DNA of 64,000 nt from IMG/VR virus record IMGVR_UViG_3300048837_000984, positions 96,001-160,000 of that record; one strand, 5' to 3'. This DNA is from a virus. Of the stretch, positions 1 to 4,682 are shown in pieces; the stretch's first letter is position 1, and each line of letters opens with the position of its first letter. A model generated the notes under the pieces. It did not search any database. It was not told where the DNA came from and saw only the letters and a list, made by a program, of their open reading frames with translations. A program made the position numbers and the translations under genes.

Positions 1-14
1 TCCTGGAGAGTGGG

Positions 15-142
15 TCCGAGCCGTACCGAGCCTAGCCGCGCCTTGCCATGCCGAACCCTGCCATACTTAGCCAAGAAAGTGCCTACCTGACGGTTTCCCG
101 TAAGGTAGGCCCAGACCACACCAAGCCCCACCACACCTAACC
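15..142 (-). ncRNA. Pentamer (GGY-NN) repeat array, putative guide RNA for the adjacent RAMP-like protein; two runs split by a hairpin; probably continues past the left window edge
   Basis: Minus strand, 142->110: GGT TA GGT GT GGT GG GGC TT GGT GT GGT CT GGG. Hairpin 110->81. Linker ACTTTCTT. Then 72->15: GGC TA AGT AT GGC AG GGT TC GGC AT GGC AA GGC GC GGC TA GGC TC GGT AC GGC TC GGA. Starts 8 nt after the stop codon of 151..819. Confidence 0.8.
81..110 (-). other. Stem-loop with GAAA (GNRA) tetraloop inside the array
   Basis: Minus strand GCCTACCT-T-ACGG-GAAA-CCGT-C-AGGTAGGC: 8-bp plus 4-bp stem with one internal mismatch. Confidence 0.85.
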
Positions 143-150
143 TGGTGCAA

Positions 151-819
151 TCAGCTCAAGGTGACTTCAAACTGGCCCCACGGCCCTGGCGTCGGACAGC
201 CGGGGCGCCAGTCACCGAGACCCTTCTTACCGGCCTCAGCAAAGATCGCTTCGATTGCCGTTGGAGTCAGGACATCTTCGTTGATGATCTGCAGCTCTCC
301 AGTCACCGCCCATGCCGTAAACTGTGGCCGCACACGGACATGCTTCGATTTGTTCGAAATCTTTGCCCGCTTAACGAAGAGCTTGAAGCCCATCTTGGCA
401 ATAGCTGACTGGTGCTTTGGAAACACATCGTCGGGGCTGTCTCCCAGGTCTCGCAGCTTGAGGATCGGCTTGATCGGGATCTGCTTACCGCTGATGGTAA
501 ACTTCAGGTGCTCGTCCGGGATGAAGAGGCCCGACTGCGACGCTTCCTTGAGCGTCTTACCGCGAGTACCTGGGATCGGGATGGTTGCTCCCGCTTGGCG
601 CAAGCAGGAAGAGAGATTGTCAGCCGGCATGCTGATGTGCGTGCCGTCGTGGTAGAGACATCCAAGCCAGGACCACGGTGGCGAGCGGTCGTCGCCCTTC
701 TTGGTAATCTCTTTCGGTGCCGCCGCACGAAATCGCGACAGCTCGTCCGAAAAGTCGATGTTGTCCGCGTGCATCAGCATGTCGGTCCGCCCGCGGCAAA
801 CGAATCTCACCGTACGCAT
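151..819 (-). CDS. Cas7/RAMP-like (RRM-fold) RNA-binding protein, VIPR-like effector candidate
   Basis: N-terminal beta strand with GRTDMLMH, PADNLSSCLRQAG helix, VRVRPQF-x2-W strand, and C-terminal Gly-rich loop GLGDWRP...GPWGQFEV typical of RAMP proteins. SD AAGGA upstream. No other cas genes nearby. Confidence 0.7.
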   Translation of the reverse strand: MRTVRFVCRGRTDMLMHADNIDFSDELSRFRAAAPKEITKKGDDRSPPWSWLGCLYHDGTHISMPADNLSSCLRQAGATIPIPGTRGKTLKEASQSGLFIPDEHLKFTISGKQIPIKPILKLRDLGDSPDDVFPKHQSAIAKMGFKLFVKRAKISNKSKHVRVRPQFTAWAVTGELQIINEDVLTPTAIEAIFAEAGKKGLGDWRPGCPTPGPWGQFEVTLS

Positions 820-831
820 AGTTCGTTCCTT

Positions 832-1053
832 TCACTTGATAAACGCTTCCAGACTGACTTTGAGAGCGTTAGCTAGACATACCGCGGTAGCCAGCGAAGG
901 TCCCCAGAGACCGTCTTCTAGACCGCGGATCGTTTGAAGGGTGATTCCAGATAACTTGTGAAGTTTCTGCTGCGTTAAACCAGCGTCGATCCGAAACTTC
1001 GCCAGCCGTTCACTGAAGAGTGAGTCGATTTCCTTCTTACGCTCGTGCGTCAT
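832..1053 (-). CDS. XRE/Cro-CI family helix-turn-helix regulator
   Basis: LAKFRIDAGLTQQKLHKLSGITLQTIRGLEDG...PSLATAVCLANALKVSLE is a canonical HTH_3 pattern. Confidence 0.9.
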   Translation of the reverse strand: MTHERKKEIDSLFSERLAKFRIDAGLTQQKLHKLSGITLQTIRGLEDGLWGPSLATAVCLANALKVSLEAFIK

Positions 1054-1366
1054 AGAGCTCCGACAGTTTTCGTAAAACCAGTTCCGGCACCACGTAAGGG
1101 TCGCAGTCGATTGCCCAGGCCGTGCCCGTGCCCGTGCCCGAGATGCCGTACCACTCTGTGTCCTCGTAGGAATAGACTATCGCCTCGGCATAGTCGTCTC
1201 CTGCCTCCCAGGTCAGGTAGAACTCGTCGAGGCCGACCTCGTAATAGAAGGGGGAAAAACCAACTTCTCCGAACAACTCCTCAGACCACAGGAAAAGAAA
1301 GGAGACACGGTTGGCGAGCTCTTGCCCGAGGTGCTCTCGTAACTCCGGACTAATGAGTCGATGCAC
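1037..1366 (-). CDS. Hypothetical protein (start trimmed to a GTG just after the upstream stop)
   Basis: Acidic, aromatic-rich ORF filling the operon. The track's 1429 start overlaps the upstream gene. Confidence 0.55.
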   Translation of the reverse strand: MHRLISPELREHLGQELANRVSFLFLWSEELFGEVGFSPFYYEVGLDEFYLTWEAGDDYAEAIVYSYEDTEWYGISGTGTGTAWAIDCDPYVVPELVLRKLSELYDARA

Positions 1367-1371
1367 GTGTA

Positions 1372-1776
1372 TCAGGCTCCCGAGAGAATGGTCCAGGCCC
1401 CGAACGAGTCTGGATCCCACAGGCCGCACGGCTCCAAGACATCCCTGACCGTGCGGATGGCATCCAGAACTTCCGCCGCGGTGATCTTAGTCGCGTCTTC
1501 GTCACCGCCGTTTAGGTAAACACAGCGAACTCCGACGTAGTACGTGTCCGGAGTGTGGTCTAGACCGGAGGCAACATCCAGGCCACGAAACTTGTCGCCG
1601 TCCAGCCCTTCGACCGCCACCTTGTAAACAATCTTGTAGGGCTTACCACAGTTCGGACAGAACCTGGGAGGGACCCGGTGAAGCTCACAGCCACACTCGG
1701 TCTCGGCCACCGGAACGATCTTGTCTGCGGCAACCGCACAGCCAATTATCGAGATGGCGTAGTAACGGTAACCCAC
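1372..1776 (-). CDS. Hypothetical protein with zinc ribbon
   Basis: CGC...RFCPNCGKP motif; AGGAGG SD upstream. Confidence 0.7.
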   Translation of the reverse strand: MGYRYYAISIIGCAVAADKIVPVAETECGCELHRVPPRFCPNCGKPYKIVYKVAVEGLDGDKFRGLDVASGLDHTPDTYYVGVRCVYLNGGDEDATKITAAEVLDAIRTVRDVLEPCGLWDPDSFGAWTILSGA

Positions 1777-1794
1777 CCTTTTTGCCTCCTGTCT

Positions 1795-1809
1795 ACTTAA
1801 AAATTAAGT
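1795..1809. promoter_or_regulatory. Palindromic motif ACTTAA-N3-TTAAGT (operator or late-promoter-like)
   Basis: ACTTAAAAATTAAGT just upstream of the SD of 1372..1776; an equally perfect copy lies at 59968..59982. Confidence 0.55.
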
Positions 1810-1840
1810 CCCACCCCGAAAACGGCCAAACTACTGAACA

Positions 1841-1859
1841 CTGTCCACCAGGTGGACAG
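1841..1859. promoter_or_regulatory. Perfect inverted repeat, operator-like
   Basis: CTGTCCACC-A-GGTGGACAG in the intergenic region upstream of the HTH/RAMP operon. Confidence 0.5.
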
Positions 1860-1973
1860 CAGATCACTTTTTCGTTGTCACGTGTAAAACTGGTAAAGTT
1901 GCCGAGAGTTGAGTGGGACTTTTACAGAGAAATCTTACCCAGCGCGATAATCTTCCAGGAAGGTGACGCTGGT

Positions 1974-2516
1974 TCAACTTGCGTCGGAACTCTGGTCACC
2001 TTTTATGGCAGCCCGGCATCGAGCGCAGTAAACCTCTGGCTGAGGTTTTTCAGGTTTGCGCAGGAGACTCATCCAGCCCGGCTCTGACGCGTCAACTACG
2101 GACACCGGGACCGAGGGGGCAGCCTCCTTGTTGTGGAGACTCTTGTGTTGTCGCCGGATCAACCGGAACAACAGCTCGCGCTGTTGCAACCGCTCCTTGG
2201 CCCGCGGGTCACGCCAGTCCCGTGGGTACGGCGTCTGCGTGTATGGACCAGCGATGAAATGAAAGACCTTGGGCGGCGTTGTCGCACAGGGTTGCCAGAA
2301 AATCTTGTTCAGCCGTTGGATCTTGACCGTGACGAGCGGCGTGACTTCGAGACGATCGAACTTGTTATCGACCACGAACAGTTCCGGGTACGGTTGCGAC
2401 ATGACGTACGCCAGGACACGGTCGACCATGTCTCGGATGTCTGGCCAGGCTTCTTCAGCTTTCAGAATGGGAACCCGCATCCGGGTCAGTCTCAACATGT
2501 CTCGACTTGGAATCAT
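1974..2516 (-). CDS. Hypothetical protein
   Basis: 180-aa ORF with AGGAG SD, C-terminal CxxC. Confidence 0.7.
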   Translation of the reverse strand: MIPSRDMLRLTRMRVPILKAEEAWPDIRDMVDRVLAYVMSQPYPELFVVDNKFDRLEVTPLVTVKIQRLNKIFWQPCATTPPKVFHFIAGPYTQTPYPRDWRDPRAKERLQQRELLFRLIRRQHKSLHNKEAAPSVPVSVVDASEPGWMSLLRKPEKPQPEVYCARCRAAIKGDQSSDAS

Positions 2517-2540
2517 AGAAACACTCCTCGTAAAAGGTCT

Positions 2541-3293
2541 TCAGGTAAGAACCTCTACACCAGTCTCTGTCACCAGGACCGTGTGTTCGTATTGCGCCGA
2601 CAGGGATCCGTCCACTGTTCTCACCGTCCACTTGTCAACCTTGTCGACAACAACCTCAGCCAGGCCAACGTTGACGGACGGTTCGATCGTAAACGTCATC
2701 CCCGGCGCCATGGTCAGGATGCTCTCCCACACGACCGTGTGGTTGACCTGTGGCGGTTCATGGAAGGCAAGACCAACCCCATGCCCACAGAACTGGTGAA
2801 CCACCGAATACCCGTGGCGGTTGACGTGCGGCTCGATCGCCTTGCCGATGTTGCTGAAGTACGCGTACGGCTTGACTTGCCGAATCCCCATTTGTAAGGC
2901 CTGCTCGGCTACCGACAACAATCTGCGAGCCTCGTCTGAAATGTCTCCGACGGCGAACGTTGTGCTTGTGTCTCCGTAGTAACCGTTGAGCACGGTCGTC
3001 ACGTCGATGTTGACGATGTCTCCTTCCTTGAGAACGTACTCCGACGGGATGCCATGGCACACCACTTCGTTGACCGAGATGCAAGTCGCAGCTGGAAACC
3101 CCTGATAACCCTTGGGAGCCGGAATGGCTTTGTTATCCGTGATGTAGGCCTCTAGCAAGTCGTTAAGGTGTCTGGTCGTAACACCCGGCAAGACGTGCGG
3201 CTCGATAAACTCTAGGCAAGATCTGGCCAGGCGACAACTCTTGCGGATCCCATCGATCTGTTCCGGCGTCTTTATCAACATGGGTGTCTGCAT
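2541..3293 (-). CDS. map: Methionine aminopeptidase, type I
   Basis: CISVNEVVCHGIP, GDIVNIDVT, GYYGDTS, FCGHGVG, FHEPPQV, TFTIEP, SAQYEHTVLVT: all metal ligands present. Confidence 0.97.
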   Translation of the reverse strand: MQTPMLIKTPEQIDGIRKSCRLARSCLEFIEPHVLPGVTTRHLNDLLEAYITDNKAIPAPKGYQGFPAATCISVNEVVCHGIPSEYVLKEGDIVNIDVTTVLNGYYGDTSTTFAVGDISDEARRLLSVAEQALQMGIRQVKPYAYFSNIGKAIEPHVNRHGYSVVHQFCGHGVGLAFHEPPQVNHTVVWESILTMAPGMTFTIEPSVNVGLAEVVVDKVDKWTVRTVDGSLSAQYEHTVLVTETGVEVLT

Positions 3294-4386: not shown

Positions 4387-4412
4387 GGCTCTATCAATTG
4401 ACTAAAGAACTG

Positions 4413-4682
4413 TCACCAGTTCTTAAACTTGTTTTCCACACGGCCCTGCAAGTGAATCGCATACTTTGCAAGCCAACCGTTGGAGAAGTTGTAAGACTTG
4501 TGCTTCTCCGTTTCCCGCACCATCTCTTCCATTTCACCAGGCGTGACATAGTCCCTCATCAGCAGGTACAGCAGGCACACCAGTCGATTTTCCGACCCCA
4601 TGGCTCCGGATGCTTCCCGGAGATCCTCAGTTTTTTCCTCATCAAACGTCATCAACACGACTCCATAGACTCCTTGTTGCAA
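4413..4682 (-). CDS. Hypothetical protein
   Basis: ORF with phage-like composition (LVCLLYLLMRDYVTPGEMEEMV); start uncertain. Confidence 0.6.
   Translation of the reverse strand: MQQGVYGVVLMTFDEEKTEDLREASGAMGSENRLVCLLYLLMRDYVTPGEMEEMVRETEKHKSYNFSNGWLAKYAIHLQGRVENKFKNW

What the first reader, a model, noticed from the sequence alone, without database searches (positions are those of the whole stretch)
15..139. Readout of the variable dinucleotides predicts specific gapped targets
Seen: run 1 NN = TA,GT,GG,TT,GT,CT; run 2 NN = TA,AT,AG,TC,AT,AA,GC,TA,TC,AC,TC. Inference: if one target base is skipped per unit, run 2 specifies TAnATnAGnTCnATnAAnGCnTAnTCnACnTC (reverse complement GAnGTnGAnTAnGCnTTnATnGAnCTnATnTA). 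A 3-nt target period could align the skipped base with codon wobble positions, making targeting robust to synonymous escape. The reverse complement reads as a plausible peptide, [ED]V[ED]YA[FL][IM][ED]L[IM]Y. I did not spot a self-target in this window but could not search exhaustively.
Basis: inference. Interest (0 to 1): 0.7.

Follow-up and report, generated by a model that had tools for sequence, protein, structure and literature searches.

The report
Phage VIPR guide-RNA array, targets unknown

Summary
On the minus strand, window 111-142 and 16-72 hold 6 and 11 in-phase GGY-NN pentamers with exactly the listed dinucleotides. They belong to a four-unit array that runs past the window start. 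Each unit is a pentamer tract plus a hairpin.

The 222-aa gene just upstream (151-819, -) is a Vipr protein. Its family profile hits the solved SUSP1 Vipr (E 9.5e-16), it keeps the GGY-binding residues, and it folds like Cas7. In 105 of 110 loci with a homologue, GGYNN runs lie on the same strand. In 100 of 110 a winged-helix accessory gene is also present.

This is therefore a new member of the VIPR systems published in 2026 (bioRxiv 10.64898/2026.04.26.720920, .720927, 2026.10.15.759431). Those papers show that the NN dinucleotides pair with DNA while skipping one target base, often the codon wobble base.

The specific targets remain unfound:
- There is no self-target.
- There is no full-length exact match in viral contigs.
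- Planctomycetota genomes show no excess over controls.
- The three exact hits (18-20 nt) look like chance.

The "plausible peptide" argument carries no weight. This scan has already met VIPR loci in at least 215 genomes.

The parts
151..819 (-). vipr gene (222 aa), a stand-alone Cas7-like RAMP protein
   Evidence: The family profile A1 hits PDB 36pp_D 'SUSP1 Vipr protein' at E 9.5e-16, aligning MH(17)AD and GLGD(203)W(204)R(205)P and R164 with SUSP1 H17, D177 W178 R179 and R138. The AF2 model has pLDDT 92.8. The best Foldseek matches are type VII Cas7 and Csm3. It matches phrog_4652 and no Pfam family.
111..142 (-). vrRNA1 repeat tract: 6 GGY-NN units (NN TA GT GG TT GT CT) starting 8 nt after the vipr stop codon
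73..110 (-). vrRNA1 3' tail: an 8-bp stem enclosing a 4-bp stem with a GAAA loop, then ACTTTCTT
   Evidence: Sequence. The fold of the 78-nt unit has z -3.1, and 0 of 200 shuffles fold as well.
16..72 (-). vrRNA2 repeat tract: 11 units (NN TA AT AG TC AT AA GC TA TC AC TC). Unit 2 is the degenerate AGT.
1..15 (-). First 15 nt (ACCCACTCTCCAGGA) of the vrRNA2 tail hairpin. The hairpin continues beyond the window start to about G000 95,971.
   Evidence: The stem ACCCACTC/GAGTGGGT has compensatory changes in the tails of vrRNA3 (ACCCACGT/ACGTGGGT) and vrRNA4 (ACCCATCC/GGATGGGT).
832..1053 (-). Neighbouring 73-aa XRE-type HTH gene directly upstream of vipr. It may be a regulator; membership in the system is not shown.
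   Evidence: Pfam HTH_3 at E 9.9e-8

Best explanation
The stretch is the first half of a four-unit vrRNA array of a VIPR (Viral Interference Programmable Repeat) system, carried by a complete 194-kb phage whose host is probably a planctomycete.

Gene order on the minus strand: XRE HTH gene, vipr, vrRNA1-4, a 151-aa winged-helix accessory gene (vap-like), then a gene with three HTH domains.

Proposed mechanism, by homology with SUSP1:
1. Each roughly 70-100-nt vrRNA is a tract of GGY-NN pentamers capped by a 3' hairpin.
2. One Vipr protomer binds each pentamer and forms a helical filament.
3. The protein sequesters G1, G2 and Y3 and presents N4 and N5.
4. The NN pairs bind double-stranded DNA antiparallel, skipping one target base per unit.
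5. Binding silences transcription of a rival mobile element.

Under that rule the non-target strand should read:
- vrRNA1: TAnGTnGGnTTnGTnCT
- vrRNA2: TAnATnAGnTCnATnAAnGCnTAnTCnACnTC (its first two units are uncertain)
- vrRNA3: (GCn)AGnAAnAAnGGnTTnGAnGAnATnCC
- vrRNA4: CGnTGnAAnCAnCCnCCnACnGCnGAnAA

Shown here: the anatomy, the protein homology with its key residues, the co-occurrence of gene and array across 110 loci, and the turnover of guides. Inferred: transcription and processing, filament formation, the 1-nt skip in this clade, silencing, and the nature of the targets.
For: - The array and its hairpins are read directly from the sequence.
- It is the only such locus in the genome.
- The Vipr profile hits the solved SUSP1 Vipr at E 9.5e-16, with H17, R164 and D203-W204-R205 invariant across 28 homologues. 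These match the residues that bind G1 and G2 in the cryo-EM paper.
- The fold is Cas7/Csm3-like.
- Across 110 loci that encode a homologue, there are 497 GGYNN runs of at least 5 units on the vipr strand against 27 on the other strand. 105 loci have at least one run, mostly abutting the gene.
- A homologue of the 151-aa neighbour occurs once, on the same strand, in 100 of 110 loci. It models as a winged helix plus two long helices, as the paper describes for DNA-binding vaps.
- In 12 loci whose vipr genes are 95-99.8% identical, the tails and one guide are identical. The other guides carry completely different NN strings and unit numbers, while GGY is kept.
- Unit lengths of about 85-100 nt for vrRNA2-4 match the roughly 100-nt vrRNAs of SUSP1.
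- There is no self-target: best own-genome scores are 10/12 (vrRNA1), 16/22 (vrRNA2) and 15/20 (vrRNA3, vrRNA4), the same as shuffled guides. The papers report the same absence.
Against: - No natural target was found.
- Full-length exact patterns gave 0 hits in viral contigs for vrRNA2, 3 and 4, and 0 in metagenome contigs for vrRNA2.
- In 401 Planctomycetota genomes vrRNA2 gave 4 hits at 3 mismatches against 6 for the reversed control.
- In 151 genomes vrRNA4 gave 3 hits against 2 for the control.
- The three exact hits lie in implausible contexts and are not wobble-phased in the likely gene.
- Sequence similarity to the tested SUSP1 Vipr is only detectable with a profile, so the skip length is extrapolated.
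- The tails are plain hairpins, not the SUSP1 pseudoknot.
- vrRNA1 has only 6 units, below the 9-16 reported for SUSP1.
- The consensus scan found no sigma-70-like promoter.
- Expression is untested.
Confidence: 0.85

Rival explanations
1. It is a genuine VIPR locus, but this distant Vipr clade reads targets with another geometry (0, 2 or 3 skipped bases), so the reader's patterns are wrong in spacing.
For: The skip rule was tested biochemically only for SUSP1 and shown structurally for SUSP1 and P. fulva, both type II. The N-terminal half, which holds the helical bundle that pockets the skipped base, aligns poorly with SUSP1 (11.6 bits). No 1-nt-skip target was found here.
Against: The authors applied the same rule to types III and V and report hits. 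The thumb and G-loop residues are conserved. In the own genome and in 835 kb of related loci no skip length did better than shuffled guides, so nothing favours another skip either.
Confidence: 0.07
2. The RNAs bind Vipr but have no current natural target. They could be decayed, orphaned or decoy guides, or their targets could be extinct or unsampled.
For: Three units are degenerate (AGT, AGC, TGC) and one guide has only 6 units. No target was found in any collection. Decoy vrRNAs exist in satellites (abstract of 2026.10.15.759431).
Against: 34 of 37 units keep GGY, and the tails keep pairing through compensatory changes. That argues for purifying selection. The collections cover rival planctomycete phages thinly, and two of them could be searched only for exact matches.
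Confidence: 0.06
3. It is not a guide system. The GGY tracts would be a sponge or wrapping site for an oligomeric RNA-binding protein (TRAP-like, 5-nt period), or they would form two-tier G-quadruplexes.
For: This was my first reading, before the homology search. It rested on the 5-nt period, on 11 units in run 2 as for TRAP, and on GG every 5 nt.
Against: The adjacent protein is a Vipr homologue with the GGY-binding residues. The NN strings turn over wholesale between near-identical loci while GGY is kept. A sponge or a quadruplex would not need that.
Confidence: 0.02

Closest known systems
Type II VIPR systems of Escherichia phage SUSP1 and a Pseudomonas fulva prophage (bioRxiv 10.64898/2026.04.26.720920; structures in 10.64898/2026.04.26.720927; PDB 36pp)
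   Same: A lone RAMP protein with the H17, thumb-Arg and G-loop D-W-R residues. vrRNAs of GGY-NN pentamers on the same strand, each capped by a structured 3' tail. A small DNA-binding-type accessory gene. A phage genome. No self-targets.
   Different: The Vipr is only distantly similar, detectable by profile but not by single-sequence tblastn against 50,697 phage records. The tails are simple hairpins followed by a U-rich stretch, not a pseudoknot. The array sits between vipr and the accessory gene. One guide has only 6 units. The host is probably a planctomycete and the phage is 194 kb. Targets are unknown. I could not assign one of the seven published types, because the supplementary tables are not held.
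Class 1 CRISPR backbone proteins: Cas7 of type VII and Csm3 of type III (e.g. PDB 8z4j, 9g9k, 6ifn)
   Same: The RRM/RAMP fold with a thumb hairpin and a glycine-rich loop (Foldseek E 8e-6 to 3e-4). Oligomerisation along a guide with periodic base flipping, according to the papers.
   Different: There is no repeat-spacer array here. The period is 5 nt on the guide and 3 nt on the target, instead of 6 and 6. Only 2 of every 5 guide bases pair. Sequence identity is about 10%.
TRAP bound to the trp leader (11 G/UAG triplets with 2-3-nt spacers; from my own knowledge)
   Same: A 5-nt period with a conserved triplet bound by one protomer each, and 11 units in run 2.
   Different: There is no homology. 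TRAP is a closed ring that sequesters RNA to control attenuation, and its spacer bases carry no information.

Membership tests
VIPR system | A Vipr protein: a stand-alone RAMP homologous to the characterised Vipr, with the GGY-binding residues | tested here: met
   Profile against PDB 36pp_D gives E 9.5e-16. H17, R164 and D203/W204/R205 align with SUSP1 H17, R138 and D177/W178/R179 and are invariant in 28 homologues. The fold is Cas7-like.
VIPR system | Tandem GGY-NN (YNNGG) pentamer tracts next to vipr on the same strand, with variable NN | tested here: met
   37 units in 4 tracts, 34 with canonical GGY. The locus is unique in the genome. The same association holds in 105 of 110 homologous loci, with 497 runs on the vipr strand against 27 on the other. 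NN strings turn over between near-identical loci.
VIPR system | A conserved structured 3' tail capping each repeat tract | tested here: met
   Each tract is followed by a hairpin. The tails of vrRNA2-4 share ACCCA...TGGGT, with three stem positions changed on both sides so that pairing is kept. The shape differs from the SUSP1 pseudoknot.
VIPR system | An associated vap accessory gene | tested here: met
   The 151-aa gene after the array (G000 95,305-95,760, minus strand) has one same-strand homologue in 100 of 110 loci. Its model is a winged helix plus two long helices, pLDDT 95.3. Only weak winged-helix regulator matches were found. Which of vap1-6 it is could not be determined.
VIPR system | A viral or proviral genome context | tested here: met
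   G000 is a 193,694-bp virus record with direct terminal repeats, estimated 100% complete.
VIPR system | vrRNAs are expressed and co-purify with Vipr | not testable with these tools
   This needs small-RNA sequencing and a pull-down.
VIPR system | Natural targets match the NN string under the 1-nt skip rule, and there is no self-target | tested here: inconclusive
   There is no self-target. No credible external target was found: 0 full-length exact hits in viral contigs, chance-level hits for shortened patterns, and no excess over controls in 401 and 151 Planctomycetota genomes.
CRISPR-Cas | An array of longer direct repeats separated by unique spacers | tested here: not met
   The array is made of 5-nt units and hairpin tails. 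The flanking genes are HTH proteins and the vap-like gene. PADLOC found no match for Vipr or the vap-like protein. I did not search the genome for cas1 or cas2.
TRAP-type RNA-binding attenuation | A TRAP/MtrB homologue and triplets in a leader that controls a terminator | tested here: not met
   The adjacent protein is a RAMP, not TRAP.

The most novel reading that the evidence does not exclude
This Vipr clade combines a winged-helix plus coiled-coil accessory protein with hairpin-terminated guides. It has more than 500 members in metagenomes, in phages and prophages of Planctomycetota, Nitrospira, Acidobacteriota, Burkholderiales and others. It may be a VIPR type whose targeting geometry or target class differs from the published type II systems. 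The failure to find 1-nt-skip targets would then reflect that difference rather than thin sampling.
Probability: 0.1. Interest if true: 0.55.

Novelty: new member of a known kind. Interest (0 to 1): 0.27.

Why it matters
It extends VIPR to a complete 194-kb phage with planctomycete hallmarks. It also shows, independently of the authors' data, three things:
- Vipr genes and GGY-NN arrays travel together across more than 100 viral and bacterial loci.
- A winged-helix partner gene is nearly always present.
- Guides are swapped like cassettes between near-identical loci.

There is no new biology beyond that, because the targets of these guides remain unknown.

Tried and rejected
- Rfam: no family matches window 1-3000, even at E 10.
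- TRAP-like sponge and G-quadruplex readings: dropped once the Vipr homology appeared.
- Pfam, NCBIfam and PADLOC: nothing for Vipr or the vap-like gene. PDB sequence search gave nothing for the vap-like gene.
- Self-target search at skips 0-3 with 200 shuffled guides each: only the array itself matches, at skip 3.
- Cross-search of 297 unique guides from 110 loci against 835 kb (those loci plus this genome) at skips 0-3: no skip length is enriched. The database is too small to be informative.
- vrRNA4, 20/20 exact hit in metagenome contig L116: the contig looks eukaryotic (WD40+M20, GH18+UBA), and the wobble-phased frames carry stops.
- vrRNA2 core, 18/18 hit in L117: a 45% GC contig, and the two 5' units match 0 of 4 bases.
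- vrRNA3 core, 18/18 hit in L118: a 36% GC contig, and the long ORF lies on the other strand out of phase.
- I judge all three hits to be chance.
- A scan for this tail type next to another tract in viral contigs: 0 hits.
- Decoding the guides to peptides (for example vrRNA4 antisense [FL]SAVGG[CW][FL][HQ]R): no tool here can search such short degenerate motifs in protein databases.

Full report
**Observation.** Read on the minus strand, the window begins inside an array. After the TGA of a 222-aa gene (window 151-819, minus) and 8 nt come the following elements:
- six pentamers GGTTA GGTGT GGTGG GGCTT GGTGT GGTCT (window 142-113), closed by GG (112-111);
- a 30-nt hairpin with a GAAA loop (110-81), then ACTTTCTT;
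- eleven pentamers GGCTA AGTAT GGCAG GGTTC GGCAT GGCAA GGCGC GGCTA GGCTC GGTAC GGCTC (72-18), closed by GG (17-16).

The window is G000:C1:96001-160000 of a complete 193,694-bp virus record with direct terminal repeats.

Reading beyond the window start shows the rest of the second unit's hairpin and two further units. Each has 10 pentamers plus a hairpin, at G000 95,950-95,899 and 95,860-95,809.

(GGYNN)5GG has 14 exact matches in the genome, and all of them lie in this array.

The tails of units 2-4 share ACCCA...TGGGT. Their three inner stem pairs differ but stay complementary (CTC/GAG, CGT/ACG, TCC/GGA), and each tail folds as a hairpin. Rfam has nothing here.

**What it is.** The 222-aa protein has no Pfam, NCBIfam or PADLOC match. 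It belongs to phrog_4652, a family of unknown function. It has more than 500 unannotated relatives in metagenomes.

The first three viral loci that encode a homologue (41-45% identity) all carry a GGCNN-type array immediately after the gene.

A profile of 28 homologues hits one solved structure, PDB 36pp 'SUSP1 Vipr protein', at E 9.5e-16. That led to three 2026 preprints on VIPR systems. They report the following:
- A Vipr RAMP protein polymerises on vrRNAs made of alternating GGY and NN.
- GGY is sequestered by H17, R138 and the G-loop residues D177-W178-R179.
- The NN bases pair antiparallel with DNA in which every third base is skipped.
- Binding silences transcription of rival phages, prophages and satellites.
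- The skipped base tends to fall on the wobble position.

In the protein studied here the equivalent residues are H17, R164 and D203-W204-R205. They are invariant across the 28 homologues. The AlphaFold model (pLDDT 92.8) is most similar to type VII Cas7 and to Csm3.

**Independent support from comparative data.**
- Among 110 loci with a homologue (80 viral contigs, 29 bacterial or archaeal genome contigs, plus L004), I counted 497 GGYNN runs of at least 5 units on the vipr strand and 27 on the opposite strand. 105 loci have at least one run, usually abutting the gene on one or both sides.
- The 151-aa gene that follows the array here (G000 95,305-95,760, minus strand) has exactly one same-strand homologue in 100 of the 110 loci, found by an iterated profile.
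- That gene models with pLDDT 95.3 as a winged-helix domain followed by two long helices. Its structural matches are only weak ones to winged-helix regulators. This fits the DNA-binding 'vap' genes of the paper.
- In twelve loci whose vipr genes are 95-99.8% identical, the tails and the vipr-proximal guide are identical. The two distal guides differ completely in NN content and in unit number, yet keep GGY. That is the pattern expected of exchangeable guides.
- The genome contigs come from Nitrospira, Steroidobacteraceae, Vicinamibacterales, Rubrivivax, Planctomycetaceae, Phycisphaerales, Geothrix and others.
- A TIGR02996 domain, a Gemmata-type hallmark, scores above its cut-off in this phage. 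This agrees with a planctomycete host.

The published rule pairs guide 5'-GGYNN-3' with target 3'-xNN-5'.

- *Own genome, skips 0-3, both strands, 200 shuffled guides each.* Best scores at skip 1 are 10/12, 16/22, 15/20 and 15/20, no different from shuffles. The only perfect matches are the array itself, at skip 3.
- *Exact full-length patterns.* vrRNA2 (22 informative nt) has 0 hits in viral contigs and 0 in metagenome contigs. vrRNA3 and vrRNA4 (20 nt) have 0 in viral contigs. vrRNA4 has one hit in metagenome contigs.
- *Shortened 18-nt cores of vrRNA2 and vrRNA3.* One viral hit each.
- *The three hits do not hold up.*
  - L116 (vrRNA4) carries eukaryote-type genes, and the wobble-phased frames at the site have stops.
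  - L117 (vrRNA2 core) has 45% GC, and its two extra 5' units match 0 of 4 bases.
  - L118 (vrRNA3 core) has 36% GC, and its long ORF is on the other strand and out of phase.
  - No second guide scores above shuffles on L116 or L117; L118 was not checked for this.
  - One hit per 18-20-nt pattern is about what chance should give in collections of this size.
- *Planctomycetota genomes.* In 401 genomes vrRNA2 at up to 3 mismatches gave 4 hits against 6 for the reversed control. In 151 genomes vrRNA4 at up to 2 mismatches gave 3 against 2.
- *Cross-search.* 297 unique guides from all loci against 835 kb showed no preferred skip length.

So there is no enrichment, and the natural targets are unknown. 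This does not refute the reading. The viral and metagenome collections could be searched only for exact matches, and rival elements of an uncultured planctomycete phage are probably not sampled.

The argument that the reverse complement 'reads as a plausible peptide' has no weight, because every NNx string is translatable.

**Differences from the characterised systems.**
- The Vipr is only distantly related to SUSP1 Vipr. Single-sequence tblastn against 50,697 phage records finds only three weak hits, in Gordonia phage Trine (two records) and Pseudomonas phage LESphi2.
- The tails are plain hairpins followed by a U-rich stretch, not a pseudoknot.
- The array sits between vipr and the accessory gene.
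- vrRNA1 has only 6 units, so it would match about once per bacterial genome by chance.
- Three units are degenerate (AGT, AGC, TGC).
- The published type (I-VII) could not be assigned, because the supplementary tables are not held.
- The 1-nt skip is extrapolated to this clade.

**Verdict.** This is a genuine VIPR locus, a new member of a kind described in 2026. The mechanistic inference matches the published code, but the specific targets are unverified.

Noticed in passing
L020-L032 (upstream 345 nt of each vipr gene): In twelve viral contigs with 95-99.8% identical vipr genes, the vrRNA tails and the gene-proximal guide are identical. The two distal guides are replaced wholesale, with different NN strings and 8-17 units. 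This looks like cassette exchange rather than point mutation.
   Followed up: partly
L002:3662-3861: An uninterrupted run of 40 GGCNN pentamers without internal hairpins directly after vipr, and a second array after the vap-like gene (4388-4539). It may be the 'staggered/overlapping vrRNA' architecture mentioned in the paper.
   Followed up: no
G000:C1:95305-95760 (minus; L001:805-1260): A 151-aa gene after the array, weakly matching phrog_5926. Its model is a winged helix plus two long helices. It is conserved next to vipr in 100 of 110 loci and is the likely vap of this clade, with no Pfam family.
   Followed up: partly
G000:C1:94553-95308 (minus; L001:53-808): A 251-aa protein with three tandem XRE-type HTH domains (RstR-like, NF041951 at E 3e-31). 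Its ATG overlaps the stop codon of the vap-like gene.
   Followed up: no
window 2541-3293 (-): The phage encodes a methionine aminopeptidase (Peptidase_M24, E 1.5e-49). The best match among five Planctomycetota genomes is 45% identity.
   Followed up: partly
G000:C1:83719-83838 (-): One TIGR02996 (Gemmata repeat-companion) domain scores above its cut-off in a 212-aa frame.
   Followed up: partly
G000:C1:95951-95990 (minus strand, between the vrRNA2 tail and the vrRNA3 tract): A 40-nt non-repeat spacer (ATTTCCGCAAGGCCTTTACTGACTGCGTTTAACGTAGCGC). It is the only long gap in the array and might hold an internal promoter. The sigma-70 consensus scan found none.
   Followed up: no
window 1120-1140: A perfect (CCGTGC)x3.5 tandem repeat inside the minus-strand ORF 1037-1429, encoding a GTGTGT stretch.
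   Followed up: no
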